From Spirochaetia bacterium (lineage in GTDB: Bacteria; Spirochaetota; Spirochaetia; SZUA-6; Bin103): a DNA stretch of 64,000 nucleotides. The stretch is from positions 3,685,880 to 3,749,879 of the forward strand of contig OZ251575.1 in the NCBI GenBank assembly GCA_965243555.1, given 5' to 3'. Positions 33,462 through 57,331 of the stretch are shown here, one piece after another. The notes beneath the pieces were generated by a model. That model ran no database searches. It saw only the letters and a program-made list of their open reading frames with translations, and was not told where the DNA came from. Each line of letters opens with the position of its first letter. The stretch's first letter is position 1. The translations under genes were made by a program, and so were the position numbers.

Positions 33462-33592
33462 CTGTTGATTGGTGTATCATGGGTCTAACTATGATCAAGC
33501 CGGCAGCGCTGCATGATTCTCGTACCTTGCCGTTCCGTCGGTCGCCGATACCGGCGGTCAACGTGGCCCGCGTTACGGAGATGATCTCGTGA
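33462..33592 (+). repeat. Inverted-duplication copy 1: remnant of a Dam-gene promoter and 5' end, encoding a 33-aa peptide 'MIKPAALHDSRTLPFRRSPIPAVNVARVTEMIS'
   Basis: About 120 bp are homologous, in inverted orientation, to 43775-43890. The 22-bp perfect core cgataccggcggtcaacgtggc lies at 33546-33567. The peptide aligns with the N-terminus of the Dam methyltransferase ('MRGGPAAPADARTAAFCRSTIPAVNVAAV'). Confidence 0.55.
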
Positions 33593-34749
33593 GGGAGGTC
33601 TACCTGGACTACAACGGCTCGGCCCCGCTTGATCCTCGCGTCGCCGCGGTTATGGTACCGATCCTGACCGACGAGTCAGGAAATGCCTCGTCCAATCACC
33701 GGTTCGGCCAACGCCAAGCGGCGGCAGTAGACGAAGCGCGAGAGCAAGTCGCTGCCCTGGTGGGCGGACGCCCATCGGGCGTCGTGTTCACCGCTGGCGC
33801 CACCGAGTCCAATAACCTGGCGCTCCGAGGCATCGTTGAGGGTTCTCCCGTCGATCGTCCAAGGATACTGGTCTCAGCGGTCGAGCACGCGTCGGTACGC
33901 GAGGCAGCCCGGCGGCTCGACGAGCAGAAGATGGCGAAGCTGGGCGTCATCCCTGTGGATGAAGGGGGAGCTGCCGACGTGGACGCATTGGAGTCGATGA
34001 TCGGCCCTGACGTACTGCTGGTTTCCGTGATGGCCGCCAACAGCGAGACCGGAGTGCTGAACCCGGTGGAGGAAGTCGCGGAGCTGGCGCATTCTGCCGG
34101 GGCGCTGTTCCATTGCGACGCGACGCAGGCAGTTGGTCGCTTGCCTTTCGACCTGGAACAGGTCGGCGCGGACTTGGTATCAGTAAGCAGCCACAAAATA
34201 TGCGGCCCGATGGGCGTAGGAGCCCTGGTCGGCACTCGCCGTGGGCTGCAACGGCTGCGTCCGATCATCCACGGCGGCGGACACGAGCGGGGGCTGCGGT
34301 CAGGTTCATTGAACGTCGCCGGCATCGTCGGGTTCGGCGCCGCGGCCCACATCGCTGCCGAGGAACGAGACTTCGAGGCGACGAGGGTGGTCACACTCCG
34401 CGACCGGCTGACGTCCGGCCTCAAGTCGGCGCTCGCAGCCGTCGTCGACGTCGGAGACCCGACGCGCAGGCTCCCGAACACCGCCAATCTCCGTTTTGTG
34501 GGTGCCGACGCGGACGCTGTCGTAGCCAACGTCGACCCTGTAGCGGTGTCAGCAGGCAGCGCCTGCAATTCCGGTGCGATAGAACCGTCCGAGGTGCTGC
34601 TTGCCATGGGAATCGCCCGCGACGCGGCCTTCGAGACGGTCAGGTTCAGCTTGGGACGCTTTACGACCAAAGAAGATATCGACTATTCAATCGAGCGGAC
34701 CGTGGCGGCCGTGAATCGTGTACGAACCATGACCCGGGAGTGTGCGTAG
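33589..34749 (+). CDS. Cysteine desulfurase (IscS/NifS/DndA/SspA-like, PLP-dependent)
   Basis: 386 aa. 'VYLDYNGSAPLDPRV', 'FTAGATESNNLAL', 'SVSSHKICGPMGVGAL' (PLP lysine) and the catalytic 'SAGSACNSG'. Its stop directly abuts the next gene's ATG. Confidence 0.85.
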   Translation: MREVYLDYNGSAPLDPRVAAVMVPILTDESGNASSNHRFGQRQAAAVDEAREQVAALVGGRPSGVVFTAGATESNNLALRGIVEGSPVDRPRILVSAVEHASVREAARRLDEQKMAKLGVIPVDEGGAADVDALESMIGPDVLLVSVMAANSETGVLNPVEEVAELAHSAGALFHCDATQAVGRLPFDLEQVGADLVSVSSHKICGPMGVGALVGTRRGLQRLRPIIHGGGHERGLRSGSLNVAGIVGFGAAAHIAAEERDFEATRVVTLRDRLTSGLKSALAAVVDVGDPTRRLPNTANLRFVGADADAVVANVDPVAVSAGSACNSGAIEPSEVLLAMGIARDAAFETVRFSLGRFTTKEDIDYSIERTVAAVNRVRTMTRECA

Positions 34750-35727
34750 ATGCGGCTCACTGACGCCGCCAGGCCGAAATTCGCCAAGCATGAGACGTTT
34801 TACCCTCACTACGGCTGGTTTCGGAAGGCGTACTCCGTTGTAGCGGACGACCCTGATATCTTTACGGCCGCCGACGCTCCCGTACAAATCGGAGTCGGCA
34901 AGAACATGGTCCGAGCAATCCGTTTCTGGGGACGTGCGGCTAAACTGATCGAGGAGGCATCCGCCCCCTCGAGACGCCGGTCCTCAAGCATGGCCCCGAC
35001 TGACTTCGGTGAACAAGTCTTCGGTGACACCGGGTGGGATCAGTACATGGAGGATCCGGGGACGCTGTGGCTGCTGCACTGGAAGCTGTTGGCCCGTCCC
35101 TGCGATCTGCCGGTATGGTGGCTGGCATTCAACGAGTTTCACGCAGTCGAGTTCACCGAAGATCAACTCGAAGAGGCGGTGGTACTTTATCTCGAAGGAG
35201 TGTCGGATTGGACGATCCCGAAGCGATCCTCGATTAGAAAGGATGTCAATGCTCTGCTGCGGACCTATACCGCAGCCCACCGCGCGCGCCGCATCGGAGT
35301 AGACGATAGACTCAACTGCCCGTTGCGAGAACTGAACCTGATAGGACGGTCAGTATCTGTTGATGGTTACCGTTTCAGCGTCGGGCCGAAACCCACGTTA
35401 CCATCGAAGATAGTTGCCTACGCCGTGCTCGACTACGTCGTACGCACCGGAGGCAGAGGAAACACGATCACGATCGCTCGCCTGACCCATGAACGGGGTT
35501 CCCCCGGGAAGGTGTTCAAGCTCAATGAGCCAGATCTGCTGGCCGCTCTCAGGCCGGCGATTGACGATTCGGAGGAAATCTCTCTGACCGTTACTACCGG
35601 AGCGATTCAGTTTTCATGGAACGGAGAACCGGAGAATATCGCGACAACGATTCTCGACAGATACTACCACCCAGACACCCCACATGAAGGCGCTCAGGCT
35701 GGCATTCGAGTGGTGACGAGCCGATGA
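34750..35727 (+). CDS. DUF4007-family protein (SspB-like, phosphorothioation-associated)
   Basis: 325 aa. The N-terminal 'FAKHETFYPHYGWFRKAY' matches the ETF..R.GW..K signature I recall for DUF4007. It is translationally coupled on both sides (ATGA overlap with the next gene). Confidence 0.55.
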   Translation: MRLTDAARPKFAKHETFYPHYGWFRKAYSVVADDPDIFTAADAPVQIGVGKNMVRAIRFWGRAAKLIEEASAPSRRRSSSMAPTDFGEQVFGDTGWDQYMEDPGTLWLLHWKLLARPCDLPVWWLAFNEFHAVEFTEDQLEEAVVLYLEGVSDWTIPKRSSIRKDVNALLRTYTAAHRARRIGVDDRLNCPLRELNLIGRSVSVDGYRFSVGPKPTLPSKIVAYAVLDYVVRTGGRGNTITIARLTHERGSPGKVFKLNEPDLLAALRPAIDDSEEISLTVTTGAIQFSWNGEPENIATTILDRYYHPDTPHEGAQAGIRVVTSR

Positions 35728-38700
35728 CGGTACTTGCGGATCACGTCACTGTTGCCGGTCGATTCGCTCGCTCGGCGAACCTCGAACGCGATGCCGGGCG
35801 GGCGGAGCCACTTGACGGATACGTGGTAACTGCACGAGCTCTTGATGCCGTGGATCGGATTGCGTCCGTTGCCGCCGAGGGGCCGGCGGGCGGCGCATGG
35901 TCCATTACCGGGCCGTACGGGTCTGGCAAATCGTCACTGGCACTTTTGCTCAATGCCGCCTTCGGTCCTCCGTGCGGTACACGAGAGATTTCATGGAACC
36001 TCATCGACCAGGTTTCTCCAGAGGTAGGGGAGCGAGTTCGGCAAGCCCATCAACGCCACCGAACCCGTGGAGCCGGGTTCCATCGCGCGTTGGTCACCGC
36101 CAACCGTGAGCCCCTCAATCACACCGTGCTCCGGGCGCTCCATGCGGCGGTCGTGTGTCGGTACGGCAAGATACCGCGCTCAGACCGATTCCCGGCGGCT
36201 GGAACGTTGACACGCGCCCTCTACGAAATGGCCGGGAACGATCCGAGCCGTACTGGCCCTTCTCCCACCGCGCTGGTCGAGATCGCGCGATGTCTGGCAG
36301 AGAAGGCACCCCTGTTGCTGATTATCGACGAGTTCGGCAAGAACCTCGAAGCCGTTGGAGACGGCCGCGGCACCGATCCGTATCTGCTGCAGCAACTGGC
36401 CGAGGCAGGTCAAGGAGCCGGGCTTCCCATCTTCGTGCTCACCTTGCAGCATCTGTCTTTCGAAGACCACGTGATCGGCGCAGACGATCCTCTGCGCCGA
36501 GAATGGGCCAAGGTGCAGGGCCGATTCGAGGACATCTCCTACGTAGACACCGCCCCGGCGACACGAGCCTTGATCGGTACGGTATTCAAGGTTGCCGACG
36601 ATAATCTCAGACACCGGATCAACTGTTGGGCAGTTCGGGCAGCCACGGAGATGCGGATACTAGGCGTCGCCGATCTAGCGGACCCGACTACGTTAGCTAC
36701 TTGCTATCCCCTGCATCCTCTCGTAACGATGGTTCTACCCGAGCTGTGCAGCCGCTATGGACAGCACGAGCGCACGTTGTTTTCTTTTCTCGCTGGTTCT
36801 GAGTCGGCGACTGCGGCGGCATTCCTTAAGACCACAAAGCTTCCGGCCGATGCTGATCTGCCTACCGTGGGCCTCGATGTAGTCTATGACTATTTTGTCG
36901 ACAGCGGTGTGCTTGCGCCGACTTCCGCGGGACGGTCGAGCCGATGGGCCGAAATCACTACCCGTATTCGGGATACTCACGGTCTTTCGACGCGGCAGTT
37001 GCGGATAGTCAAAACGGTCGCGTTGCTCAATCTGGTTTCGGTCGCCGGAACGATTCGCGCATCCTCCCGGGTGCTCGCTCTTGTCGATACCGAGGTTGGC
37101 GCGACGCTCGCGGCTCTTGACGAGGCCGGTATCGTTACCTATCGAGAATTCGCCGACGAGTACCGAATCTGGCAGGGGACGGATATCGACATCCGCCGTC
37201 TACTTGAATCCGCTGGCCATCAGGTACAGCGGCAGTCACTCGCGGACATTCTGCCGGCCTTGGACCGGCCTGGCCCTGTCGTGGCTGCGCGCCACAGCGC
37301 TGAACGCGACATACTCCGAGTATTCGCTAGGCGCTATGTCGAGGGTTCCGAGTGGGTCAAGCCACTTGACCCGTTTTCTCCCTACGACGGTGAGGTGCTG
37401 CTCGTCGTCGGATCAGGTGGGGCGACTCCGGCTGCGACGTGGACGCCCGGCACGGCAAAACCGGTTGTAGCAGCGATACCTGCCGACTTAAGCGCAGTCG
37501 ACCGCGCCGCGCGAGAGGCTGCGGCAGTCTCTGCTGTGCTGAAAGATCCTTCCGTCCAGGCCGACAGAGTCGCTCTGACCGAGATGAGCGAACGATTGGC
37601 AGAGACAAAGACCGCGGTCGAACATGAGCTCTCTGTCGCGTTCAGCGTTAATCCGTGCCGTTGGGTCTTGCTCGACGCTTCGGGCAATCAGCCATTGAAT
37701 AGCGGCCGCGGTACCGCCCCTCTCTCAGACGCGGCTGACCTTGCTTATCGTTCTACACCACAAGTACGCAACGAGATGCTCAATCGCGCTGAGCTAACGT
37801 CTCAGGGCGCGATGGCCCGGCGCCTACTGTTGGAAGGCATGATCGAGCGAGGCTCCGAGCAGAACCTCGGGCTTACCGGCTATGGCCCGGAAGTCGCCAT
37901 GTACCGAGCGTTCTTGGAAAAGACCAGACTTCACAGAATCGACCCCCACACCAAGACGATGGTATTTCGTAAGCCCAAAGACCCCTCCCTTCAACATGCT
38001 TGGGCGGTTGTAAAGAAAGCATTTAGAAGCGCCAGGACAAGCCGCATCAACCTTAACAACGTCTATGCATCCCTGTTGTCGCCGCCGATTGGGATGAAGC
38101 CCGGAGTCATTCCCGTATTTGTTACGGCGGCATTGCTCGTATTCAATGACGAGGTAGCTATCTACGAGCATGGAACCTTCAAGCCCTTGCTGACGCCCGA
38201 GATGTCTGAGCGAATGGTCCGGAACCCCGTCCACTTTGAAGTAAAACACTTCGCCAACACGACAGGAGCCCGTCGTCAGGTCATTGATGCGCTTGCCAAG
38301 GAGCTCGGTGTTCGGCCGGGATTCCGCAAGCATCGAGTCGCGAATGTGCTCTCTATCGTTGGGCACTTGGTGTCACGCATGAGGCACGTCGAGAACTATA
38401 CCTTGCACACATCGCAACTAGACTCAACAGTACGGACTGCGCTTGTGGCGGCCGTCGAGCCAGACAAACTGCTATTCTACAGCCTTCCGGATGCACTTGA
38501 GTTCCCCTCGGTGCCACCCAGTGCGAAGGTGTACATCTACGCCGAACGGTACGCCGCCGCAGTCCGAGCGGCGATCGATCACCTTACGCAGTGCTACCGG
38601 CGACTTCTAGAGAGTCTCCGCGATCTTTTCTTCGAGACGTGCGGCGAGACTGAACGAAGGGCGATTACCGGGCAAGCGGTCGCAATCGAGAAGGAGGTCT

Positions 38701-40838
38701 TCAACCCTTCTATACGCCCGTTTGTCCTTGCGCTGGGGAACGATGCGCTCGATACCGAGATCGACTGGATCGACCTGCGACGCTTCAAGTACGAGCTTCC
38801 GCGCCAGATTGCAGCATTCCAACGCATCGTCGCGCTCCACGCCGGCTACATGGCCACTGGCGGTGGGCCGTTCCAAGCGCTCCGACTGACTCTCACCCGT
38901 CCGGATGGCATCGAGTATAATCGTCTCGTCAGCGTTGACAAGAGTCACCGCGATCAGGTACTGTCGATCCTTGACAGCACGGTGGAGGCTACTACTCACG
39001 CTCTCGCTGAACTCATTGACAATTCGATCGAGAGTCAAGCGAACGTGATTGAGATATTCGGCGTGAGTAGGAAGGATCATCGTACTAGCCGATTTACGCT
39101 CGATGAATTGGCCGTTCTTGACAATGGTGACGGAATGGACCAAGCAACTCTCCGCGGAAGCCTGCGCTACGGTCATGGCACCCGCAGGGAAAGAACAGGA
39201 ATTGGGCGTTTTGGTCTCGGGCTTCCGAATTCGTCGATGTCGCAGGCCCGGCGTGTCGACGTTTGGTCGTGGCGATCTGGTGTAACGAACGCCCTTCACA
39301 CATGGCTCTCCATTGACGATGTGGAGGCTGGAGCCAGCGAGATACCAGAGCCCATATTGGAGCCGATTCCCATGCGGTACCGAGTGGGGAGCCGTCACGG
39401 GTTCGGCGAAACCGGCACGCTGGTCGTATGGACCGATCTCGATCGCGTTGAATGGAAGCAGGTATCCACGACTTTCAAGCATACTGAGAACCTACTCGGT
39501 AGGATATATCGGCGTTTTCTAGCCAAACCATCGGAGAGGCTCCACGCCGCCGACGTGCGCGCGGATGAGATTGGCACGCGACGCTCAATAACTTGCATCC
39601 CGATCCAGGAAGACGGCGAGGTCGGGACGGTCGTTGACTCCGATGTCGTCGAGGTGAGACCCAACGATCCACTGTACCTCATGACAGACACATCATGCCC
39701 GGAGGCGTTCGGACCAGGGCCGATGTTTATGGAGCTCGAAGGGAGTCCTTTTTCGGTTCCCGTGACCCACATGGGAAGGGAGTACCAAGTAATAGTCAGG
39801 GCCAGCTATGCTCACGCGCACGCTCGCGACTCGCTGGCTTCCGGCGCCGCATGGCCAGACGAATGGAAGGGACGCGCTCCGGGACATACACCGTGGGGGA
39901 AGCACGCTAACCAGAACATAGGAGTATCCTTAGTCCGGGCACACAGGGAGATCCAACTTGACGACTCGTGGATTAGCGGCGACGACCCGCGAGAACGCTG
40001 GTGGACCGTGGAGTTGGATTTTCCTACGGCTCTCGACGAGGTATTTGGTGTCGCAAACAACAAGCAGAGTACGGTCACGTTTCAGCGACTTGCCAGGTAC
40101 GAATGGGAACGAGAGGCGCTTCCAGGCGAGACCTCGAGCGGTGATGTCCGACGACGGATGGAGCAGGAGGGAGACCCCCGAACTCATCTTCTGGATCTAC
40201 GGAGGCAGATCAATAGGGTGATAGAGCTGATGCGTAGCCGCGTGCGGCAAGCACGGCAACGGCGTAGCCGGCGTCACGATCTTGATGAAGATCAGAAGGC
40301 GGATGCCAGAGCCACTGCCACAATCAAGCGGCGCATACAGGAGGGCTACCAGGGGGAGTCCGAACGTGCAGCAGAATCGGGCACTGACGAGGAACACAAG
40401 GACGCTCACGTTGAATCACTCGTCGACAGGCACCACCTTGATCGCGTTGACGCATTGCGGAGGATAGACGAGACTATCAAGGCCGGAAACCGAGTCCGTT
40501 GGATTCAGTCGTCGCAGTCGAGTGCCGCGTTCTTTGACGTTGAGCCACTGCCAAATGTGATACAGGTTGTACTCAACACTAATCATCCGGTGCACGGTCA
40601 TCTATACGAGGTAATGCATCCCGACATCGAGGACATGACCGAAGATGAGGTACGTGAACGACTCGCGAAATCCGCTGCAGCGTTTCGTATCTTGATTTAT
40701 TCGTGGGCGCGCTATGAGGAGGAGCAGAACGAACGGAACCGGCGACGCGTACGAGATGCGCGCATGGAGTGGGGCAAGTACGCGGAAGAGTTCTTCGATG
40801 ACGACGACGGGGCCGTCCCACCAACAGATTTAGTGTAG
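35724..40838 (+). CDS. 1704-aa fusion protein: N-terminal P-loop NTPase plus a C-terminal-half GHKL (Bergerat-fold, HATPase_c_3-like) ATPase with an acidic/coiled-coil tail
   Basis: Walker A 'ITGPYGSGKSSLALL' (~35910-35940) and Walker B 'LLLIIDEFGKNLE' (~36312-36350). GHKL N-box 'ELIDNSIES', G1 box 'VLDNGDGMD' and G2 box 'GIGRFGLGLPNS' (~39000-39230). Lower GC than the flanks. Confidence 0.8.
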   Translation: MTVLADHVTVAGRFARSANLERDAGRAEPLDGYVVTARALDAVDRIASVAAEGPAGGAWSITGPYGSGKSSLALLLNAAFGPPCGTREISWNLIDQVSPEVGERVRQAHQRHRTRGAGFHRALVTANREPLNHTVLRALHAAVVCRYGKIPRSDRFPAAGTLTRALYEMAGNDPSRTGPSPTALVEIARCLAEKAPLLLIIDEFGKNLEAVGDGRGTDPYLLQQLAEAGQGAGLPIFVLTLQHLSFEDHVIGADDPLRREWAKVQGRFEDISYVDTAPATRALIGTVFKVADDNLRHRINCWAVRAATEMRILGVADLADPTTLATCYPLHPLVTMVLPELCSRYGQHERTLFSFLAGSESATAAAFLKTTKLPADADLPTVGLDVVYDYFVDSGVLAPTSAGRSSRWAEITTRIRDTHGLSTRQLRIVKTVALLNLVSVAGTIRASSRVLALVDTEVGATLAALDEAGIVTYREFADEYRIWQGTDIDIRRLLESAGHQVQRQSLADILPALDRPGPVVAARHSAERDILRVFARRYVEGSEWVKPLDPFSPYDGEVLLVVGSGGATPAATWTPGTAKPVVAAIPADLSAVDRAAREAAAVSAVLKDPSVQADRVALTEMSERLAETKTAVEHELSVAFSVNPCRWVLLDASGNQPLNSGRGTAPLSDAADLAYRSTPQVRNEMLNRAELTSQGAMARRLLLEGMIERGSEQNLGLTGYGPEVAMYRAFLEKTRLHRIDPHTKTMVFRKPKDPSLQHAWAVVKKAFRSARTSRINLNNVYASLLSPPIGMKPGVIPVFVTAALLVFNDEVAIYEHGTFKPLLTPEMSERMVRNPVHFEVKHFANTTGARRQVIDALAKELGVRPGFRKHRVANVLSIVGHLVSRMRHVENYTLHTSQLDSTVRTALVAAVEPDKLLFYSLPDALEFPSVPPSAKVYIYAERYAAAVRAAIDHLTQCYRRLLESLRDLFFETCGETERRAITGQAVAIEKEVFNPSIRPFVLALGNDALDTEIDWIDLRRFKYELPRQIAAFQRIVALHAGYMATGGGPFQALRLTLTRPDGIEYNRLVSVDKSHRDQVLSILDSTVEATTHALAELIDNSIESQANVIEIFGVSRKDHRTSRFTLDELAVLDNGDGMDQATLRGSLRYGHGTRRERTGIGRFGLGLPNSSMSQARRVDVWSWRSGVTNALHTWLSIDDVEAGASEIPEPILEPIPMRYRVGSRHGFGETGTLVVWTDLDRVEWKQVSTTFKHTENLLGRIYRRFLAKPSERLHAADVRADEIGTRRSITCIPIQEDGEVGTVVDSDVVEVRPNDPLYLMTDTSCPEAFGPGPMFMELEGSPFSVPVTHMGREYQVIVRASYAHAHARDSLASGAAWPDEWKGRAPGHTPWGKHANQNIGVSLVRAHREIQLDDSWISGDDPRERWWTVELDFPTALDEVFGVANNKQSTVTFQRLARYEWEREALPGETSSGDVRRRMEQEGDPRTHLLDLRRQINRVIELMRSRVRQARQRRSRRHDLDEDQKADARATATIKRRIQEGYQGESERAAESGTDEEHKDAHVESLVDRHHLDRVDALRRIDETIKAGNRVRWIQSSQSSAAFFDVEPLPNVIQVVLNTNHPVHGHLYEVMHPDIEDMTEDEVRERLAKSAAAFRILIYSWARYEEEQNERNRRRVRDARMEWGKYAEEFFDDDDGAVPPTDLV

Positions 40839-40845
40839 GCGGACT

Positions 40846-41760
40846 GTGTCGGACAGCGACTATACTCAAGGAAGCCGTATTCGAGTTCTACTCGGCCGTG
40901 CTGTTCGGAATGTCGCAGTCATAGCACCGTTCGTCAAAGTCAATGCACTCCGATCGCTTCTCGACGCTATCCGCACAGATGTTCACGTACGCTGCGTTAC
41001 CCGCTGGCTTCCACGTGATGTAGCCGCGGGTGTCTCCGATCCGGAGATTATGGACGCACTCGAGGAGCGCGGCAACTTCAGCCTGTCGCTGGTTGACAGA
41101 CTGCATGCAAAGCTCTACGTCTCCGACGATAGGTGCCTTGTCGGCTCATCGAACGTGACCTTTGCCGGGATGGGTGAGCGAACGGATGACAGCAACATCG
41201 AGGTACTCGTAGAGACGGCCGCCGACGATCCGGCTGTCGTTGCCACGCTCCACGAAATCATGCAGGCAGAGCGCCCAGCGACACGATCCATCGCCTTGGC
41301 GGCACGCCGCTTGGCAGATAGTCTCCCAGCGGAGGCGAGAACGTCGGCGGACGCCGGTGCAACCTGGTTTCCGTGCAGCCGGCATCCGGAGTACGCATTC
41401 CACTTTCATAGCCAGCCGCCCAGCGGATACGTAAGAGCATCAGACAACGATCTTCTCGCAGACTTGGCTCGTTCCAACTTACACCCGGGTCTGAGCGAGG
41501 AGGAGTTCAGTTCGGCTATCCGATCGTTGCTTGCGACGATACCGGTTGCCACCATCATTCTCAGCTCCGAGGAGGACATGACGTTCACCCGTGCGGATGC
41601 TCAGTCGTACTTGGAGGGAATTGCAGGTGAGGAGTTCTCAGCAGGCGACCTGTGGAGCGCATTCGTCAACTGGATGGCCTATTTTTTCCCAGAATCAGTT
41701 ATAAGGCAAGAGATTTCGGAAATCGCACTTCGTCGGGCGCAGATTCTGAATGATCGATAG
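40846..41760 (+). CDS. Phospholipase D-family (single HKD) nuclease
   Basis: 304 aa. 'LHAKLYVSDDRCLVGSSNVTFAGM' is the H-x-K-x4-D-x6-G-S-x-N motif (41101-41170). One HKD per chain implies a dimeric Nuc/BfiI-like nuclease. It sits 7 bp after the giant ATPase. Confidence 0.75.
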   Translation: MSDSDYTQGSRIRVLLGRAVRNVAVIAPFVKVNALRSLLDAIRTDVHVRCVTRWLPRDVAAGVSDPEIMDALEERGNFSLSLVDRLHAKLYVSDDRCLVGSSNVTFAGMGERTDDSNIEVLVETAADDPAVVATLHEIMQAERPATRSIALAARRLADSLPAEARTSADAGATWFPCSRHPEYAFHFHSQPPSGYVRASDNDLLADLARSNLHPGLSEEEFSSAIRSLLATIPVATIILSSEEDMTFTRADAQSYLEGIAGEEFSAGDLWSAFVNWMAYFFPESVIRQEISEIALRRAQILNDR

Positions 41761-42149
41761 CGGTCAACCGGGACGTATACGAGATTCAGGCTTGCGGCCA
41801 CCACGGTACCCCCCGAGGCGCGGCGCTATGATCGGGATCGACACCGGCGCGCCGCCGCCTTCGCCTGTCGCCCTTTCGGCTCATCTGCTCGTGGAGATCA
41901 TATGCGAGGTCGGCTACCGTGTCCGCATTGTCAACAGATCGTCCGAACCGTCGTATCCGGTCGATAGCATACTGTGCGCCTTCTGGAGGTGGCGCTTCGA
42001 AGCAAGCAGAGATTCTTCGAAGATTGTCGACGATGGTCGACTCAGTTCGAATGCTACCGACAGGTCAGTGCCGCCACGCAGAGCCGCGACTCCCTCTCTA
42101 CTGCTCAAGACTGAATCAAGTTGGCGAAGGTGTGGATTCTGCGCTTCAA

Positions 42150-42947
42150 CTACGGGTGGTTGGTCCGCCTCTTGCTGCCGTACATCCACAGAAAGAGTTC
42201 TCCGAGCTCGGTTCTCCGCTCGACAGGAACCGGCTCAGTATCCTCGAACGAATAGTCCCACAGACCGATGAATTCTGATATTCCGGAATAGTCCAGGCCG
42301 GTATAGAGGTGAGAGAACGAGAAATGACTACGCCATCGGTCGGAGCGGCTGAACACTTTCATTCGCTCAGCTTGTTCGATAACGATGAGGCTCCGGAACA
42401 GTCGCTGGACGGTGCGGTGAGTGTCGCCGATCTGCCTGGCGATGCTATCAAGCGGTATGGAAAAGCCTTTGCGGATCTCTGCGATGTACCGGGCCTTCGC
42501 ATAGCTGCTCCACTTCGCGGGACCATTTATGTGCTTGAAGCCAAGATGGCGCCACGAATCCTCCCGATTGCTGAACAGGACCGGCAGCTTGTTGAGGTCC
42601 TTCTTCGCTTCCCCGGTAATCTCCGGTATATCCGTTGCGAATCCGAAAGACTCAGGATCCAATAAGATTCTGACTGCGGCCAGGCGGCGGTTACCTTCAA
42701 CGACTACGTTCTTTCCATTTTCCGCAGCGACGATCAACGGTTCATGGCTGAAGAACCCGCTGGCCGCAATGGAGAGGACCAACTCCCGGACGTCCATTGC
42801 GTCCCACAGCACCTTGATAACGTCTGAATCCGTGGAGTTATCGGTCAGCTCAAACTCCGGCAACCGAGGGTTCGCAAAATCGAAGATGAGCTCCGCGACC
42901 GCCACCGTCTCTACGGAAGCAGCAGCACTCTTCGAACGTGGTATCAT
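42150..42947 (-). CDS. ParB-like nuclease domain protein
   Basis: 265 aa. 'VVVEGNRRLAAVRILL' is the ParB/Srx GxRR box. Lies 16 bp downstream of the Dam gene on the same strand. Confidence 0.6.
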   Translation of the reverse strand: MIPRSKSAAASVETVAVAELIFDFANPRLPEFELTDNSTDSDVIKVLWDAMDVRELVLSIAASGFFSHEPLIVAAENGKNVVVEGNRRLAAVRILLDPESFGFATDIPEITGEAKKDLNKLPVLFSNREDSWRHLGFKHINGPAKWSSYAKARYIAEIRKGFSIPLDSIARQIGDTHRTVQRLFRSLIVIEQAERMKVFSRSDRWRSHFSFSHLYTGLDYSGISEFIGLWDYSFEDTEPVPVERRTELGELFLWMYGSKRRTNHP

Positions 42948-42963
42948 TCGGAACCTCCGTATT

Positions 42964-43860
42964 TCACGTGAACAGGCGGTCCTTGGTGATGATCAGTTCG
43001 GCGATGCGGGCGTGATGGCCGTTCTTCATTTCGACTACCGCGGCGTGGAACTTGAACCTGTCCACCAGATCGACGATTTCCTCGCTGCAGTCGTAGGTCA
43101 TCAGAAAGTCGGCTTCGCTATCTGCCAGCACGCGGAATACACGTTGGTGATCTACTTCATTGTGAGCGTAGAGGCGGGAGCCGGCGCGCTTGCCGCCGGC
43201 CGCGGTGTATGGCGGATCGACGAAGAAGCGCACCTCCCGGCGCTGCTCGGCGAGTGTCTCCATAATCCGCACGCCGTCGCCCTCGCGGAAGGTAAATCGG
43301 TTCGAGTAGGCCGCGATCGCGCGCAGGCGCTGCTCCAGGGTAGCGGGATACCAGCGCGAAGCAACGCCCTGGCCGTTCTCGCCATTTCTGGTGAGCGCTG
43401 CCCCCGGTGCGAGTACGCCGCCGCGCCGCGTGCGATTCAACACCAGAGTGCGAAATCCATGTTCCAGCACGTTTTCGGGAGCACGTCGCGCCAGCGCTTC
43501 CACGCTTTCCCGATCGGGGAAGAAGCGACGTATCGACGTTATCAGTTCGGCGCTGTGCTCCAAAGCAGCGCGCCAGAACGCAGCCACGTCGCGGTCCAGA
43601 TCAACCAGATACGCTCGCTCTGACAGCTCTTCCATAACGGCGGTCAAGGAGACGATGGCCCCGCCGGCGAACGGCTCGACGAGCAGCTCGGTGTGGCGGT
43701 CGCGCAGCCAATGCCGGATGTGCGGAACCAGCCACGTTTTACCGCCGGGGTACCGCAACGGGCTGCGTTGGGGAACGGCCGCCACGTTGACCGCCGGTAT
43801 CGTCGATCGGCAGAACGCCGCGGTGCGCGCGTCAGCCGGTGCTGCCGGTCCTCCCCTCAC
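42964..43860 (-). CDS. Dam-family (D12 class) N6-adenine DNA methyltransferase
   Basis: 'SPLRYPGGKTWLVPHI' (motif X), 'VEPFAGGAIVSL' (motif I) and 'FVDPPYT' (motif IV). GTG start at 43860, or the internal GTG at 43786. Confidence 0.8.
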   Translation of the reverse strand: MRGGPAAPADARTAAFCRSTIPAVNVAAVPQRSPLRYPGGKTWLVPHIRHWLRDRHTELLVEPFAGGAIVSLTAVMEELSERAYLVDLDRDVAAFWRAALEHSAELITSIRRFFPDRESVEALARRAPENVLEHGFRTLVLNRTRRGGVLAPGAALTRNGENGQGVASRWYPATLEQRLRAIAAYSNRFTFREGDGVRIMETLAEQRREVRFFVDPPYTAAGGKRAGSRLYAHNEVDHQRVFRVLADSEADFLMTYDCSEEIVDLVDRFKFHAAVVEMKNGHHARIAELIITKDRLFT

Positions 43861-43890
43861 TGCCTACGGACGATACATCAAATTAGGCGG
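43775..43890 (-). repeat. Inverted-duplication copy 2 (native Dam promoter and 5' end)
   Basis: The reverse complement of 43781-43802 is identical to 33546-33567. The flanks are about 65% identical over roughly 120 bp. Confidence 0.55.
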
Positions 43891-44004
43891 CCGCAACAGC
43901 AACCGGCGTGACCCGGCCGGCAGTGCGCGCGAGTGGCGGCGTCCGTGGTCAGCGCGGCCCGCGCGCGAGAGGAAACGGGCGGGCGGGTTGCAGGTAGGGG
44001 GCTC

Positions 44005-46947
44005 TCAGTCGTCGAGGAGGCCGAGTTCGCGGAGGGGCTCCAGGACGTTGTGCTCCAGTTTGGCGGAGTCGAGGGGGCCGGCCGGGTTGGCGGCCTTGAT
44101 GCTGATGGTGACTTCGCCGGCCAGTTCGGCGAGGTTGGCGAGGGCGCGCCACGCCTCGTACAGCTCGCCGCTGCCGGCGGTGAACGAGATTGCCACGTCG
44201 CCGGCAGTTCCGGGGGCGGAGCGCGGGGGATCATCGGGACCGCCGGCGGTTCCGGTACCGGCGCCGGTGGGTTGGCGGACTTCGCCTCCGGTGGCGGCAA
44301 TGCCCTGCAGCGTCTGCGCCGGCGCGGGACCGCCGGCCCCGGCCCCGGTCGCGGTCGGGACGGCCGGCGCTGGCGCTACGGCGGGTTTCGGCAGCGCGGC
44401 GGGCAGGATGAGGAAGCCGGAGTCGAGGTCGATCTCGTCAGCGGCAACGGCGCGCTCGAAGGCGATGCGGCTGCGGTCAAGGCGGTAGCGGCCGTCCTCG
44501 CCGAGTGGCGGGCGGGCGGTGGCGTAGCCGAACAGGCCGGTCTCCACGCCGCGGGCGATGGCGGCGCGCACCACGCCGGTGGAGCGCAGGCGCGGGAAGC
44601 CGAGGAACGAGAAGAAGCCGGCGACCACCTCGGCGGTCGGGATGCCGGGCGCGGCGCCGTCCCGGCCGACGTTGAACAACTCGATGATCTTGCCCGGCGC
44701 GACGGTGTCGAAGACCAGGCGTCTCACCTCCGCCAGCAGCTCCATCAGCCGCTGGTGAATCAGGGCGTGCTTGCCGGCGCCGAGGGTGTTCCGCAACGGG
44801 CGCCCGCCCATGGCGACGGTTTCCAGGACAAGCGCGCCGGCGCCCGACTCCGGCAGCAGCACTGCCGCGTACAGCCCCAGCAGCGCCGACTCGGCGGCGG
44901 TCTCCTCGGTCGCCGCCCGCTCCTTGAGCTGGCTGCGCTGCGCCGCGGTGAGGTTGTGCTGCCGCGACCGTTCGCGCACCTGCTCCACGGCCAGCGCATA
45001 GCGCACCGCGCGGCGCAACCCCCGGATGCGGTCCGGGTCGGGCACGGCGAGCGCCAGACCGTTGCGGTACTCGCGCGCCCGCGGTCCGTGGTTCTCGCAC
45101 AGATCGCGCGCGGCCGCCTGCTGCTCGGCCGCAGAGCCGGCGGCGAACTCCAACGGCAGGTAGGCGATCAGAAAACGCGCGTCGCGGTCCGGCACGTCGG
45201 CCGAGCGCTCCGGCCAGATGATGGCCGGCTGGCCGGCAAGCCGTTCTTCGATCAGCGCCCGGATGCGGGCGCGCACGCGGCCCTCGTCCCGCGCGTCCGC
45301 CTCCTGCTCGACCAGCAGCGTCACGTTGGGGTCGCGCTTGAAGCAGTAGCGCGCGCCGTCGAAGTGGAGATACAGGCACTGCTCCCGCAGCTCCTTGAGG
45401 CACGCCTGCGCGGTGGTGCTGTCCAGGTCGGGACCGATGCTCACCCCCAGCAGCTCGGACTCGGTGATGCCGGGGGGCAGCGGGTCGCCCTCATCGTCAT
45501 CGCTCCCCGCCCGGCGCAGCCCGCCGAACGAGTAGAGCAGCATGATGGTCGCCAGGCGGGTGGCCGGTTCCCTGCCGGCCTCCGACGTCACCTCCCGCGC
45601 GCGCCGCCGGTCGATGCGCGGCGCGCGCGCGTTGCCGCCCACGAAGTCGTGCTCCAGACACGCCTGAAAATCCTCCCGCTGCCCCACCTCCTTGAAGAAC
45701 GCGAGGCGCACCTCGGCGTCCCGCAACGGCACGTCGCCGGGGCCGAGCAGCAGGCGCGACCGGCCCGCGCGGTGCGCGGCGCGCAGGCAGGCCGCCAGAA
45801 AGCGCAGGGCGCCGCGCGTGCGCTGGAAGTCCGGCACCGCCGCCCAGCGTTCCCGCATCAGGTCGATCAGCGCGGGATGAAAGGGGTAGGCGGCGCTGAT
45901 CCGGTCGCGCAACGCCATGCCTTCCTCCTCCGCCTGCCGCCGTTCGGCGTCGCCCTGCGCGTACGCCTGCCGCATCCGCGTGAACACCTGCCGGTACGCT
46001 TCGGCCACGCTCCCCGCGGCGTTCGCGTCCGGCGCCGCGGCCAGCAGCCGCCGCCGGATCACGTGGAGGATTTCGTTGCCGGCGACCGGCTCCCGCCGCT
46101 GGTCCTTGCGGGCGGCCAGGTGCTCGACGGTCTGCAGCAGCCCCGTGTACTCAAGCGACTCGCGCGCGCTCGACTGCAGCGAGTACACCAGCACCGCGTC
46201 ATCGACGGCGCCGACCGCCACGGTGAGCCGCTTCAGGAACGACAACGTCTCGTCGCGCAGGGTGGTCTGGCCCACGCGCACGCCGCCGGCGCTGATCAGG
46301 TATTCCAGGATTTCATCGAGGAGGATGAGGCTCGGCCCGCGCCGCAGCAGCTCGATCAGCACGTCGCCGCCGGGCGCCACGCGCGCTTCGTCCTGGCGCC
46401 GCAGCAGGGCGTAGCCGCCCGCCCCGCCGAGCGCCCAGCCGATCCATCCCCAGATCGTGCGCGCCGTCACCTCCGCCTGCGGCGCGCGCTTGCCGGCGGT
46501 GGCGTCGAAGAGCTGGCCGTCCACGACCGCCGCCCGCACCCGCTCCGGGCGCGGCAGGCCGGCCGCTTCCGGCAGCGCGGCGAGCGCGTCCCGCGACCGG
46601 GCGGCGTGCAGCAGCGCGGCGAGCGTGTGCGACTTGCCGCCGCCGAACGGGGTCATCAGCTTGAGCACGCGGTTGCCGCGCGCGCCGGCCAGCCGGCTCA
46701 GCACGTCGTCGAGCAGCGAGCGCAGCCCGGCGGTGAGGTAGGAGGCGGCGAAGAAGCTGCCGGGGTCGCGGTAGACGGCGGGCACGCGCGGCAACTCGGC
46801 GTCCGGCGCGCCCCGCTCCCTGCCGGTCAGATAATCGGACAACGCCCCCAGGTCGAGCGCGAATACGTCGTCGGAAAACTCGTCCGCCAGGACGTCCGGG
46901 TGCAGGGCGGCGCATTCGATCCAGGGCCGTAGCGGCGTGCCGTTCAT
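44005..46947 (-). CDS. DUF499-family ATPase (component of the DUF499/DUF1156/helicase restriction-modification-like system)
   Basis: 980 aa. Walker A-like 'KLMTPFGGGKSHTLAAL', Walker B 'SLILLDEILEY' and an Ala/Pro/Gly-rich linker before the C-terminal domain. Adjacent to the DUF1156 methyltransferase. Confidence 0.7.
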   Translation of the reverse strand: MNGTPLRPWIECAALHPDVLADEFSDDVFALDLGALSDYLTGRERGAPDAELPRVPAVYRDPGSFFAASYLTAGLRSLLDDVLSRLAGARGNRVLKLMTPFGGGKSHTLAALLHAARSRDALAALPEAAGLPRPERVRAAVVDGQLFDATAGKRAPQAEVTARTIWGWIGWALGGAGGYALLRRQDEARVAPGGDVLIELLRRGPSLILLDEILEYLISAGGVRVGQTTLRDETLSFLKRLTVAVGAVDDAVLVYSLQSSARESLEYTGLLQTVEHLAARKDQRREPVAGNEILHVIRRRLLAAAPDANAAGSVAEAYRQVFTRMRQAYAQGDAERRQAEEEGMALRDRISAAYPFHPALIDLMRERWAAVPDFQRTRGALRFLAACLRAAHRAGRSRLLLGPGDVPLRDAEVRLAFFKEVGQREDFQACLEHDFVGGNARAPRIDRRRAREVTSEAGREPATRLATIMLLYSFGGLRRAGSDDDEGDPLPPGITESELLGVSIGPDLDSTTAQACLKELREQCLYLHFDGARYCFKRDPNVTLLVEQEADARDEGRVRARIRALIEERLAGQPAIIWPERSADVPDRDARFLIAYLPLEFAAGSAAEQQAAARDLCENHGPRAREYRNGLALAVPDPDRIRGLRRAVRYALAVEQVRERSRQHNLTAAQRSQLKERAATEETAAESALLGLYAAVLLPESGAGALVLETVAMGGRPLRNTLGAGKHALIHQRLMELLAEVRRLVFDTVAPGKIIELFNVGRDGAAPGIPTAEVVAGFFSFLGFPRLRSTGVVRAAIARGVETGLFGYATARPPLGEDGRYRLDRSRIAFERAVAADEIDLDSGFLILPAALPKPAVAPAPAVPTATGAGAGGPAPAQTLQGIAATGGEVRQPTGAGTGTAGGPDDPPRSAPGTAGDVAISFTAGSGELYEAWRALANLAELAGEVTISIKAANPAGPLDSAKLEHNVLEPLRELGLLDD

Positions 46948-46962
46948 CGTACTCGTACTCCC

Positions 46963-49770: not shown

Positions 49771-49795
49771 ACGACGCCGGTGGCGGCAGTCGGCA

Positions 49796-50646: not shown

Positions 50647-50649
50647 TCG

Positions 50650-50965
50650 ACCACGCCTCCTGACGCCGCCCATCATAGCACGCCGCCCCCCGCCGCAACA
50701 GGGCGGATGACCTGCGGGCCTTCATCGCCGAGCACGCCGCCGTGCTCAAGACCATCGACGGAAGCTGACCAATCAGGCGAGCCGCCGGCCGAGATCGACC
50801 GGCGGACGGCGGCGGCGGGGAACGGCGCGCGCTGCCGCAGGGCCAGCTCGCGGCAGAAGGTCCAGAACGGCAGCACGCGGGCGATGACTCGTCGCTCCCG
50901 GCGCCGAGCAGCGACAGCGCGAAGGTCGTCTTGCCGACTTGGCGCGGGCCGCCCACGAACACCAT
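50650..50965 (-). pseudogene. Fragment of an AAA ATPase (DUF4143/AAA_14-like N-terminus 'VFVGGPRQVGKTTFALSLL') without the rest of the protein
   Basis: Only about 25 residues of recognisable Walker A context. The remainder of the frame is Ser/Pro/Ala-rich low complexity. It runs into the Uma2 gene. Confidence 0.3.
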
Positions 50966-51074
50966 GCGCGCGGCAAGGTCGGCGGTGACCGCGGGGGCGA
51001 GGTAGCGGGGCGCTGATGGTTTGGTTGGTCGTGGTGGATTGACGATCGGACCCGGTCAAGGTAGAAGTGTGGGC

Positions 51075-51665: not shown

Positions 51666-51721
51666 ACGGCGTTTGGCGACCGCCGTCCCGCCGTAGAGCG
51701 CGTAGGTATGCCCCACACTGG

Positions 51722-53644: not shown

Positions 53645-53755
53645 CGGAGCCCCCTCAAGTCGCCGACTGCCTCGCGGAACGCACGAACACTGTGGTTTCG
53701 CCCAGATCGACGGCGAGGTGACGGATCGATCGGAAGTTGCGGATCTCGATCCGGG

Positions 53756-57331
<3,576 letters not shown>

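What the first reader, a model, noticed from the sequence alone, without database searches (positions are those of the whole stretch)
35724..40838. 1704-aa protein fusing a P-loop NTPase with a GHKL (Bergerat-fold) ATPase
Walker A 'GPYGSGKSS' and Walker B 'IIDEFGK' sit within the first ~220 residues. About 850 residues later comes a complete GHKL signature: 'ELIDNSIES' N-box, 'LDNGDGMD' G1 box and 'GIGRFGLGL' G2 box. A long acidic, coiled-coil C-terminus follows ('RRSRRHDLDEDQKADARATATIKRRIQEGYQGESERAAESGTDEEHKD').

Fusing two different ATPase engines in one polypeptide recalls MORC-like and condensin-like defence proteins, but I cannot place this combination in a described family. The ~650-aa middle region and the ~500-aa C-terminal region carry no motifs I recognise and may hold the DNA- or modification-sensing domains.
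Basis: seen in the sequence. Interest (0 to 1): 0.75.

Follow-up and report, generated by a model that had tools for sequence, protein, structure and literature searches.

The report
Deletion-made SspC–MORC ATPase chimera
The 1704-residue "two-engine" protein is real in the sequence, but it is a one-off chimera: a roughly 4.6-kb deletion inside a phosphorothioate DNA-modification defence cassette welded the SspC ATPase gene to a neighbouring MORC-like ATPase gene, and it is most likely a disabled remnant, not a new protein family.

Summary
The ORF (35724-40838, +, 1704 aa) and all quoted motifs are there. Residues 1-1088 are SspC, the BrxC-like P-loop ATPase of the SspABCD phosphorothioate (PT) modification system. 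Residues 1090-1704 are a MORC-like GHKL ATPase.

The fusion is not a family architecture. All 120 best SspC relatives are about 1155 aa, and all 120 best GHKL relatives are stand-alone proteins, nearly all 644-646 aa. A syntenic relative (L003) carries sspA-sspB-sspC-sspD-sspE-like-SF2 helicase-GHKL-PLD. The window matches it on both sides but lacks about 4.6 kb in between.

The deletion removed:
- the SspC tail;
- sspD, which PT synthesis needs;
- the sspE-like gene;
- the helicase;
- the conserved first 31 residues of the GHKL protein.

The join is in frame, with at most 2 nt of microhomology. A second 54-nt in-frame deletion removes a conserved SspC motif. No sspD or helicase remains in the window. 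None of 36 reference genomes or about 240 listed homologues shows the fusion.

Verdict: a lineage-specific deletion scar in a decaying defence cassette. Interest is low.

Side lead: the intact helicase-GHKL-PLD trio flanks ssp genes in 34 of 34 evaluable loci, and dnd genes in one distant relative. It may be an undescribed PT-linked restriction module.

The parts
33589..34749 (+). sspA: cysteine desulfurase (IscS/DndA-like), 386 aa, intact
   Evidence: PADLOC SspA E=6e-129. Pfam Aminotran_5 E=8e-75. Same length as in relatives L001 and L003.
34750..35727 (+). sspB: DUF4007 protein, 325 aa, intact; its stop overlaps the start of the chimeric ORF
   Evidence: PADLOC SspB E=1.2e-101. Pfam DUF4007 E=4.8e-85.
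35724..40838 (+). Chimeric ORF, 1704 aa: SspC lacking its C-terminus joined to a MORC-like GHKL ATPase lacking its N-terminus
35724..38987 (+). SspC-derived segment (residues 1-1088) with Walker A (63-71) and Walker B (200-206); lacks the last ~53 residues (~161 nt) that the closest relative P0001/L001 carries after the breakpoint
   Evidence: PADLOC SspC PDLC02781, residues 16-1084, E=1.3e-283. 88% identical to the 1162-aa P0001. blastn to L001 stops at window 38988, which is 161 nt before L001's sspC stop.
38765..38776 (+). Scar of a second, 54-nt in-frame deletion inside the SspC part (between 38770 and 38771). It removes 'EALATVVxGKAPAEWxxD', a motif kept in all relatives compared.
   Evidence: Protein and DNA alignments. 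The deleted block is flanked by a CGA repeat. The surrounding DNA is 96-97.5% identical to L001.
38982..38992 (+). Junction of the ~4.6-kb deletion (codons ~1087-1090, '...TVE|A|TTHALAEL...'), with at most 2 nt of microhomology
   Evidence: Window 33585-38961 aligns to L003 7849-13282 and window 38991-41760 aligns to L003 17885-20651. Junction alignments with L001, L003 and L004.
38988..40838 (+). GHKL-derived segment (chimera residues 1089-1704, equal to residues 31/32-646 of the stand-alone protein). GHKL plus S5/transducer module covers about 1090-1481. A long charged helix covers about 1486-1539. A C-terminal helical/beta domain runs to 1704. The conserved N-terminal 31 residues, including helix 17-27, are missing.
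   Evidence: Pfam HATPase_c_3 E=8.8e-18. 95% identical over 100% of its length to the 646-aa P0121. AF2 model of P0121 has mean pLDDT 89.5. Foldseek top hits are MORC2, SMCHD1, MORC3/4 and MutL over about 440-460 columns. N-terminal conservation is shown.
40846..41760 (+). PLD/HKD-family putative nuclease, 304 aa, intact; the third gene of the ancestral helicase-GHKL-PLD trio
   Evidence: Pfam PLDc_2 and PLDc. Weak PADLOC hits to ZacB and DrmC. It follows the GHKL gene in L003-L007 and in 35 of 36 reference loci.
42964..43860 (-). Dam-like (D12 class) DNA methyltransferase. In relative L003 this gene lies directly upstream of sspA; here it is relocated and inverted. It may belong to the ancestral cassette.
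   Evidence: blastn: window 42964-43817 aligns to L003 7856-7003, reversed, 82% identity. Pfam MethyltransfD12. PADLOC PD-Lambda-5_B and MTase_II.

Best explanation
The ORF is a chimeric gene made by an illegitimate-recombination deletion inside a phosphorothioate (PT) restriction-modification-like cassette.

The ancestral cassette is seen intact in relatives. It is sspA (cysteine desulfurase), sspB (DUF4007 DNA-binding protein), sspC (BrxC-like P-loop ATPase, about 1155 aa), sspD (PAPS-reductase-like PP-loop enzyme), an optional sspE-like DUF262 gene, an SF2 helicase (about 510-590 aa), a MORC-like GHKL ATPase (646 aa) and a PLD/HKD nuclease (about 302 aa).

In this genome about 4.6 kb is missing. 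Codon ~1088 of sspC is joined in frame to codon 32 of the GHKL gene.

Shown:
- the polarity of the event (separate genes are ancestral);
- the breakpoints;
- the loss of sspD, the sspE-like gene and the helicase;
- the loss of the SspC tail and of the conserved GHKL N-terminal helix;
- a second in-frame deletion that removes a conserved SspC motif.

Inferred:
- Without sspD the locus cannot insert sulfur into DNA.
- Without the helicase and the GHKL N-terminus the restriction trio is crippled.
- The 1704-aa product is therefore an inert or decaying remnant, not a two-engine machine.
- One deletion that removes the modification enzyme and part of the restriction module together is the safe way to lose such a system, because losing modification alone would expose the host DNA to its own restriction module.
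For: (1) Architecture. All 120 best hits to the full protein are about 1092-1209 aa and cover only 60-68% of it (the SspC part). The best, P0001, is 88% identical and 1162 aa. All 120 best hits to residues 1089-1704 cover 95-100% of it, and almost all are 644-646 aa stand-alone proteins. In a scan of 1.84 billion cluster representatives, 474 relatives reach E<=1e-30, and none of the 150 listed exceeds 685 aa.

(2) Synteny. L003 shares fpg, an aldo-keto reductase, sspA, sspB and sspC with the window. It then carries sspD, a GmrSD_N gene, a helicase, the GHKL gene and the PLD gene. blastn shows that the window skips L003 13283-17884.

(3) Junction. It is mapped to window ~38985-38990, with at most 2 nt of microhomology. 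Both sides are 96-97.5% identical to the closest separate-gene relatives.

(4) Missing genes. No PP-loop SGGxDS motif exists in any of the six frames of the 64-kb window. tblastn finds no SspD or helicase in the window. SspD is present in the relatives (PADLOC SspD E=8e-109).

(5) Reference loci. In 36 reference-genome loci from at least 10 phyla the genes are always separate. The helicase is present in all 36 and overlaps the GHKL start in most of them.

(6) Lost GHKL residues. The missing N-terminal residues are conserved. S11-S31 is nearly invariant among close relatives. R25, G28 and Y29 are at least 90% conserved among 82 relatives at 28-52% identity. Helix 17-27 is modelled with pLDDT 85-92.

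(7) Further decay. A 54-nt in-frame deletion removes the conserved KAPxEW motif of SspC, and there is also a 9-nt indel.

(8) Local instability. The same region shows other rearrangements relative to L003: a 15.7-kb island insertion, relocation of the methyltransferase and an internal deletion in the hydantoinase gene.
Against: - The reading frame is preserved over 1704 codons. The 54-nt and 9-nt deletions are also in frame, which could hint at selection to keep the ORF open. Chance alone gives about 1/3 for each event.
- Branch-specific substitution counts show no clear relaxation of constraint. SspC part: 38 synonymous and 27 non-synonymous on the window branch, against 41 and 27 on the L001 branch. 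GHKL part: 19 and 11 against 32 and 8, Fisher p=0.17. The deletion is therefore either recent or the product is still constrained.
- sspA, sspB and the PLD gene are intact.
- The SspC tail that was lost is the least conserved part of the family.
- An sspD or helicase copy could exist outside the 64-kb window.
- The junction was not found in any other assembly, so the deletion allele has no independent confirmation.
Confidence: 0.8

Rival explanations
1. Functional neo-fusion. After the deletion, the chimera was retained because tethering the SspB-guided SspC DNA-scanning ATPase to the MORC-like clamp ATPase, with the PLD nuclease downstream, gives a working defence or DNA-surveillance protein that no longer needs PT.
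For: The ORF is open across 1704 codons and all catalytic motifs of both engines are intact. There is no significant excess of non-synonymous change on the window branch. sspA, sspB and the PLD gene are intact, and the gene starts remain overlapped or closely spaced. The lost SspC tail is poorly conserved.
Against: It is a singleton: there are no other fusions among about 240 listed homologues, the 150 listed representatives or 36 genome loci. The conserved GHKL N-terminal helix is gone. By analogy with MutL, GyrB and MORC (established knowledge, not tested here), this segment contributes to ATP-driven dimerisation. The helicase, present in all 36 reference loci, is gone. A conserved SspC motif is deleted.
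Confidence: 0.08
2. Assembly artefact or minority variant. The join was produced by mis-assembly of a metagenome or MAG, or it represents a rare deletion allele, and the organism's predominant genome carries the intact cassette.
For: The closest relatives come from metagenome assemblies. The exact junction sequence is absent from GTDB representative genomes and from JGI metagenome contigs. The window also shows other precise deletions relative to L003.
Against: The two parental sequences share no repeat of k-mer length at the junction. There are only 0-2 nt of microhomology and a 6-nt GACAGC 12 nt upstream, so an assembler has no overlap on which to mis-join. The flanks are collinear with L003 on both sides. 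The separate 54-nt deletion, with its CGA microhomology, looks like a genuine slippage event.
Confidence: 0.08
3. One reading: a bona fide, conserved two-engine (P-loop plus GHKL) defence protein family not yet described.
For: Both domains are real and sit in a defence island.
Against: No homologue with this architecture was found in searches of 5.8 billion proteins or 1.84 billion cluster representatives. The separate-gene state is universal and ancestral.
Confidence: 0.01

Closest known systems
SspC of the SspABCD(-SspE / -SspFGH) single-strand DNA phosphorothioation systems (Xiong et al. 2020, as cited in PMC8092258 and PMC10853773)
   Same: Residues 16-1084 match an SspC profile end to end (E=1.3e-283). 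Walker A and Walker B are present. The gene is preceded by sspA and sspB (DUF4007) in the canonical order.
   Different: The C-terminal ~53 residues (relative to P0001) are replaced by another protein. An internal conserved motif (KAPxEW) is deleted. No sspD follows it or lies anywhere in the window.
BrxC/PglY (DUF499-type ATPase of BREX). The SspC/BrxC homology is noted in PMC12839542.
   Same: PADLOC BrxC-PglY profile hit over residues 9-1003 (E=9.5e-89).
   Different: It scores far below SspC. In the ssp operon (33.5-41.8 kb), scanned with PADLOC and Pfam, none of the genes is PglZ-, PglX- or BrxL-like.
Prokaryotic MORC/paraMORC GHKL+S5 ATPases in operons with SF-II helicases and nucleases (Iyer, Abhiman and Aravind 2008, PMC2292703)
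   Same: The stand-alone parent of the C-terminal half has a GHKL plus transducer module whose best matches are MORC2, SMCHD1, MORC3/4 and MutL. In relatives it sits between an SF2 helicase and an HKD/PLD nuclease, which is the theme that paper describes.
   Different: In the window the helicase is deleted and the ATPase has lost its N-terminal 31 residues. I did not find the link of this particular family to ssp or dnd PT-modification genes described anywhere. A term search of the 2024 PT reappraisal (PMC10853773) finds no occurrence of 'MORC', 'GHKL', 'HATPase' or 'MutL'.
SspE and SspFGH, the two described restriction partners of SspABCD (PMC8092258)
   Same: The helicase-GHKL-PLD trio occupies the same genomic position, immediately downstream of sspD or sspE, as these modules. 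It can co-occur with an SspE-like DUF262 gene, just as SspFGH co-occurs with SspE.
   Different: There is no sequence relationship. SspF is reported with only a Walker A motif and SspH with an FtsK-like C-terminus. The trio consists of an SF2 helicase, a GHKL ATPase and a PLD nuclease, and it has no dedicated PADLOC model.
MzaB (GHKL ATPase of the Mza system)
   Same: Weak domain-level similarity over the GHKL fold (PADLOC E=2.6e-12; NCBIfam 61 bits).
   Different: The NCBIfam score is far below the family cut-off (61 against 850). The partner genes are different.

Membership tests
SspC (SspABCD PT-modification system) | Full-length match to an SspC family profile, with P-loop Walker A and Walker B | tested here: met
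   PADLOC PDLC02781 matches residues 16-1084 to profile positions 2-1101 of 1104, E=1.3e-283. GPYGSGKSS is at 63-71 and IIDEFGK at 200-206.
SspC (SspABCD PT-modification system) | Operon partners sspB (DUF4007) and sspD (PAPS-reductase-like PP-loop enzyme) | tested here: not met
   sspB is present. sspD is absent: no SGGxDS motif in six frames and no tblastn hit in 64 kb. Relatives have sspD directly after sspC.
SspC (SspABCD PT-modification system) | Complete polypeptide of about 1155 aa, with conserved motifs intact | tested here: not met
   The C-terminal ~53 residues present in P0001 are missing, and 18 residues containing the conserved KAPxEW motif are deleted.
SspC (SspABCD PT-modification system) | Supports PT modification of DNA | not testable with these tools
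   This needs LC-MS/MS of PT dinucleotides or iodine-cleavage mapping.
MORC-like / paraMORC GHKL+S5 ATPase | Bergerat-fold motifs (N-box, G1, G2) scoring above the Pfam threshold | tested here: met
   HATPase_c_3 scores 65.1 bits against a cut-off of 25, E=8.8e-18. A PDB profile search gives MORC2 at E=2e-11.
MORC-like / paraMORC GHKL+S5 ATPase | GHKL domain followed by an S5/transducer domain | tested here: met
   The AF2 model of the 95%-identical stand-alone P0121 has mean pLDDT 89.5. Foldseek aligns about 440-460 columns to the MORC2, SMCHD1 and MutL ATPase modules, E about 1e-13. This was tested on the parent protein, not on the chimera itself.
MORC-like / paraMORC GHKL+S5 ATPase | Family-conserved N-terminal segment (residues 1-31, helix 17-27; R25, G28, Y29) | tested here: not met
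   The chimera begins at the equivalent of T32. The lost residues are at least 90% conserved in 82 diverse relatives.
MORC-like / paraMORC GHKL+S5 ATPase | Operon with an SF-II helicase and a nuclease (Iyer 2008 theme) | tested here: not met
   The PLD nuclease is present at 40846-41760, but the helicase is absent from the window. It is present in all 36 reference loci.
   There are no such fusions among the 120 plus 120 listed homologues, the 150 listed representatives or the 36 genome loci.
MzaB (Mza system) | NCBIfam equivalog score at or above the cut-off | tested here: not met
   NF041932 scores 61.4 bits against a cut-off of 850.
BrxC/PglY (BREX) | BREX partner genes (PglZ, PglX/BrxX, BrxL) in the same operon | tested here: not met
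   The operon genes at 33.5-41.8 kb are sspA, sspB, the chimera and the PLD gene only. The BrxC profile hit is much weaker than the SspC hit.

The most novel reading that the evidence does not exclude
The most novel reading not excluded is that the chimera is a working neo-fusion. In it, SspC's DNA-scanning P-loop ATPase (guided by SspB) is covalently tethered to a MORC-like GHKL clamp that gates the downstream PLD nuclease. That would make a PT-independent defence or DNA-surveillance machine born from a single deletion. A separate and more probable lead (my estimate about 0.5-0.6) concerns the intact relatives: their helicase-MORC-like GHKL-PLD/HNH trio may be an undescribed restriction module that reads Ssp- or Dnd-made phosphorothioate marks.
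Probability: 0.06. Interest if true: 0.7.

Novelty: new member of a known kind. Interest (0 to 1): 0.3.

Why it matters
For the finding itself, this is a cautionary result. A striking 'two-engine' giant protein turns out to be a deletion scar. The case also shows how a modification-plus-restriction cassette can be switched off safely by one deletion that removes the modification enzyme (sspD) and part of the restriction machinery together.

The comparison that exposed the scar also gives a useful lead. A highly conserved SF2 helicase-MORC-like GHKL ATPase-PLD nuclease trio is glued to sspBCD genes in many phyla, and a distant member lies next to dndABCDE. The sspBCD survey (PMC8092258) reports most sspBCD clusters without a recognised restriction partner, quoting 2,211 of 2,678 (83.9%), so the trio is a candidate to fill part of that gap. 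It would also link MORC-type ATPases, which read epigenetic marks in eukaryotes, to a backbone epigenetic mark in bacteria.

Tried and rejected
- SspFGH identity for the downstream genes: rejected. SspF, SspG and SspH are described without helicase, GHKL or PLD features.
- A named PADLOC or NCBIfam system for the helicase-GHKL-PLD trio: none found. There are only domain-level hits to PbeA, MzaB, ZacB and DrmC.
- Literature searches for a GHKL/MORC partner of Ssp or Dnd systems: nothing beyond the general 2008 MORC-helicase-nuclease theme. The library holds only open-access papers.
- Exact junction sequence in GTDB representative genomes and in JGI metagenome contigs: no match. The deletion allele is therefore not independently confirmed and the source organism is not identified.
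- PDB sequence search with the SspC part: no solved relative.
- First AF2 model from a shallow alignment of 21 sequences: mean pLDDT 51, unusable. It was replaced by a model from 82 sequences with pLDDT 89.5.
- Branch-specific synonymous and non-synonymous counts as a test of relaxed selection: inconclusive.
- Promoter and terminator scan of 33.3-42.4 kb: no more sites than in shuffled sequence, so uninformative.
- Contexts of three more distant GHKL relatives (L047-L049): the contigs are too short to say whether PT genes are nearby.
- An alternative junction model in which recombination used the chance similarity between SspC 'LDxTVE' and GHKL 'VDSRMTVEA': considered and rejected as less parsimonious, because it needs two extra small deletions.

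Full report
OBSERVATION

The + strand ORF 35724-40838 encodes 1704 residues without an internal stop.
- Walker A, residues 63-71
- Walker B, 200-206
- GHKL N-box, 1096-1104
- G1 box, 1132-1139
- G2 box, 1159-1167
- the charged stretch, 1513-1560

The GHKL assignment is statistically solid: Pfam HATPase_c_3 scores 65.1 bits against a cut-off of 25, E=8.8e-18, over residues 1091-1209.

WHAT THE TWO HALVES ARE

Residues 16-1084 match a PADLOC SspC profile from end to end (positions 2-1101 of 1104, E=1.3e-283). A weaker hit goes to BrxC/PglY (E=9.5e-89).

The two genes upstream are:
- sspA, a cysteine desulfurase (33589-34749; PADLOC SspA E=6e-129)
- sspB, a DUF4007 protein (34750-35727; PADLOC SspB E=1e-101, Pfam DUF4007 E=5e-85)

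So the 'P-loop NTPase plus unexplained 650-aa middle region' is simply SspC, the ATPase of the SspABCD single-strand DNA phosphorothioation system.

The C-terminal 616 residues are 95% identical, over their whole length, to a 646-aa stand-alone protein, P0121. I built a high-confidence AlphaFold model of P0121 from 82 diverse relatives (mean pLDDT 89.5, pTM 0.77). Its features are:
- a GHKL domain plus transducer (S5-like) module, residues ~1-423
- a 54-residue charged helix, 428-481
- a mixed helical/beta C-terminal domain

Foldseek places it next to the ATPase modules of MORC2, SMCHD1, MORC3/4 and MutL, with about 440-460 aligned columns and E about 1e-13. PDB sequence-profile searches agree: MORC2 at E=2e-11, then MORC4, MORC3, SMCHD1 and MutL.

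THE FUSION IS A DELETION CHIMERA

I searched 5.8 billion proteins with the whole ORF. All 120 best hits are about 1092-1209 aa (mostly about 1155) and cover only 60-68% of the query. The best, P0001, is 88% identical and 1162 aa long. I then searched with residues 1089-1704. All 120 best hits cover 95-100% of the query, and almost all are 644-646 aa. A full scan of 1.84 billion cluster representatives with P0121 finds 474 relatives at E<=1e-30, and none of the 150 listed is longer than 685 aa. Nothing resembles the fusion.

The contig carrying P0002 (L003, 82% identical SspC) shares the window's chromosomal flank (fpg, then an aldo-keto reductase). Its gene order is:

sspA - sspB - sspC (1159 aa) - sspD (with the PP-loop motif SGGKDS) - a 360-aa GmrSD_N/DUF262 gene - an SF2 helicase (588 aa) - the GHKL gene (646 aa) - a PLD gene (303 aa) - hydantoinase

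blastn aligns the two sequences as follows:
- window 33585-38961 to L003 7849-13282
- window 38991-41760 to L003 17885-20651

The window therefore lacks about 4.6 kb. The missing stretch carries the 3' end of sspC, all of sspD, the sspE-like gene, the helicase, and the first 31 codons of the GHKL gene.

The still closer relative L001 (93% nucleotide identity) loses similarity at window 38988, which is 161 nt before its own sspC stop.

Junction alignments give this picture:
- The window follows sspC through '...GACAGCACGGTGGAGG'.
- It then continues with the GHKL gene from 'ACTACTCACGC...' (T32 T33 H34).
- There are at most 2 nt of microhomology.

Within about 200-400 nt on either side, the window is 96-97.5% identical to the nearest separate-gene relatives.

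The polarity of the event is unambiguous. The separate-gene state is found in every relative, including ones far outside the window's clade, and the window's sequence nests inside that clade.

WHAT WAS LOST

- No sspD. No SGGxDS PP-loop motif occurs in any of the six frames of the 64-kb window, and tblastn with SspD finds nothing. Relatives carry a clear SspD (PADLOC E=8e-109).
- No helicase.
- The N-terminal 31 residues of the GHKL protein. They are nearly invariant among close relatives. R25, G28 and Y29 are at least 90% conserved among 82 relatives at only 28-52% identity. Helix 17-27 is confidently modelled. By analogy with MutL, GyrB and MORC (established knowledge, not tested here), this N-terminal segment contributes to ATP-driven dimerisation.
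- The SspC tail. It is the least conserved part of that family.
- A conserved SspC motif. The SspC part carries a second lesion: a 54-nt in-frame deletion at 38770/38771, flanked by a CGA repeat. It removes 'EALATVVxGKAPAEWxxD', a motif retained even in relatives that are only 47% identical. There is also a 9-nt indel.

MOST LIKELY MECHANISM

In the intact relatives, established knowledge of Ssp systems (PMC8092258, PMC10853773) says SspA mobilises sulfur, SspB and SspC find the sites, and SspD inserts the sulfur. By inference, the helicase-GHKL-PLD trio is the restriction arm.

In the window, one deletion removed the catalytic modification enzyme and part of the restriction arm together. That is the non-lethal route to losing such a cassette. 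As a comparison, expressing SspFGH without PT modification is toxic.

I therefore read the 1704-aa ORF as an inert or decaying remnant (confidence about 0.8).

Caveats:
- The frame is preserved across the whole ORF.
- Branch-specific substitution counts show no clear relaxation of constraint. The SspC part has 38 synonymous and 27 non-synonymous changes on the window branch, against 41 and 27 on the L001 branch. The GHKL part has 19 and 11 against 32 and 8 (p=0.17). The event may simply be recent.
- A functional neo-fusion cannot be excluded (about 0.06-0.08).
- An assembly artefact is unlikely (about 0.08), because the two parents share no k-mer-length repeat at the join. However, the junction has no independent confirmation.

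CONTEXT

The ssp region (34-44 kb) has 58-61% G+C against 70-74% in the flanks, so it is probably a horizontally acquired island.

Relative to L003, a 15.7-kb block (41761-57426) is inserted between the PLD gene and the hydantoinase gene. It carries:
- a PD-Lambda-5-like gene pair
- an Hma system (HmaC 44005-46947, HmaB 46963-49770, HmaA within 53756-58687)
- a Uma2 nuclease
- a GajB-like UvrD helicase

The Dam-like methyltransferase that precedes sspA in L003 is relocated and inverted here (42964-43860). The hydantoinase gene has an internal deletion. This is a rearrangement-prone defence island.

SIDE LEAD FROM THE RELATIVES

A scan of GTDB representative genomes with the GHKL family found 36 loci, all in MAGs. 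They come from Latescibacterota, Acidobacteriota, Gemmatimonadota, Gamma- and Alphaproteobacteria, Poribacteria, Nitrospirales, Spirochaetia, Rhodothermales, Acidimicrobiales and others.

tblastn on these loci shows the following:
- The helicase lies directly upstream of the GHKL gene in all 36 loci, overlapping its start in most of them.
- The PLD gene lies downstream in 35 of 36.
- sspB, sspC and sspD lie adjacent in 34 of 34 loci that have enough upstream sequence. The other two contigs are truncated.
- The linkage holds where SspC is only about 25% identical to the window's clade.
- It also holds where the ssp genes are divergently oriented (L028, L029, L033).

Two more distant members add to this. 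One at 41% identity again follows sspABCD (L046). One at 35% identity sits in a helicase-GHKL-HNH module beside dndA, dndE, dndD, dndC and dndB, with a PLD gene nearby (L044/L045).

The trio is not SspE or SspFGH. It has no dedicated PADLOC model. I did not find it described as a PT-linked module. The general theme of a MORC ATPase with an SF-II helicase and a nuclease in an R-M-like operon was predicted in 2008 (PMC2292703).

Sample codes such as ENGE20-1 and PANK22-1, and MAG names such as SB0661_bin_7, suggest sponge microbiomes. That reading rests on my memory only and was not tested.

VERDICT

- The 'fusion' itself is a lineage-specific deletion scar in a decaying Ssp cassette, not a new family.
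- Interest in the finding is low (0.3).
- The retained value lies in the Ssp/Dnd-linked helicase-MORC-like ATPase-nuclease module seen in the intact relatives.

Noticed in passing
L003 16032-20651; L005-L043 (helicase ~8478-10007, GHKL 10001-11938, PLD ~11950-12850 in locus coordinates); L046; L044/L045: A conserved trio of SF2 helicase, MORC-like GHKL ATPase (646 aa) and PLD nuclease lies next to sspBCD in 34 of 34 evaluable reference loci from at least 10 phyla. This holds even with very divergent or oppositely oriented ssp genes. A relative at 35% identity sits in a helicase-GHKL-HNH module beside dndABCDE. The trio is not SspE or SspFGH and has no PADLOC model. It is a candidate new PT-linked restriction module.
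   Followed up: partly
window 38770/38771 and ~38429: A 54-nt in-frame deletion (flanked by a CGA repeat) removes the conserved 'KAPAEW' motif of SspC, and there is a 9-nt in-frame indel. Both lie in DNA that is otherwise 96-97.5% identical to relative L001.
   Followed up: yes
window 41761-57426: A 15.7-kb block is inserted between the PLD gene and the hydantoinase gene, relative to L003. It carries a PD-Lambda-5-like pair, an Hma system (HmaC 44005-46947, HmaB 46963-49770, HmaA), a Uma2-family nuclease (49796-50965) and a GajB-like UvrD helicase (51722-53644). It is a second layer of the defence island.
   Followed up: partly
window 42964-43860 (-): This Dam-like D12-class methyltransferase is 82% identical to the gene that sits directly upstream of sspA in L003 (7003-7856). 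Here it is relocated downstream and inverted, next to a 265-aa ParB-like ORF (42150-42947). That ORF matches only the first ~170 positions of the ~470-position PD-Lambda-5_A profile and is probably truncated.
   Followed up: partly
window 57427-58452 and ORF 53756-58687 (-): A hydantoinase-A remnant has an internal deletion of about 1.16 kb relative to L003 (21528-22683). The 1643-aa 'HmaA' ORF on the opposite strand runs across this remnant, so its N-terminal ~450-500 codons are probably a spurious high-GC extension. The PADLOC HmaA hit covers only residues 504-1592.
   Followed up: no
window 34000-44000: G+C drops to 0.58-0.61 across the ssp/GHKL/PLD region, against 0.70-0.74 in the flanks. 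This fits horizontal acquisition. GHKL proteins that are 62-79% identical occur across many phyla, which implies recent inter-phylum transfer. The hosts may be sponge-associated MAGs, but that is inferred from sample names only.
   Followed up: no
window 59101-59853 (-): A 250-aa ORF carries a DUF1156 N-terminal domain, a fragment like the start of HmaB or a DUF1156 methyltransferase. It lies outside the Hma operon and may be the remnant of another DUF1156 methyltransferase system.
   Followed up: no
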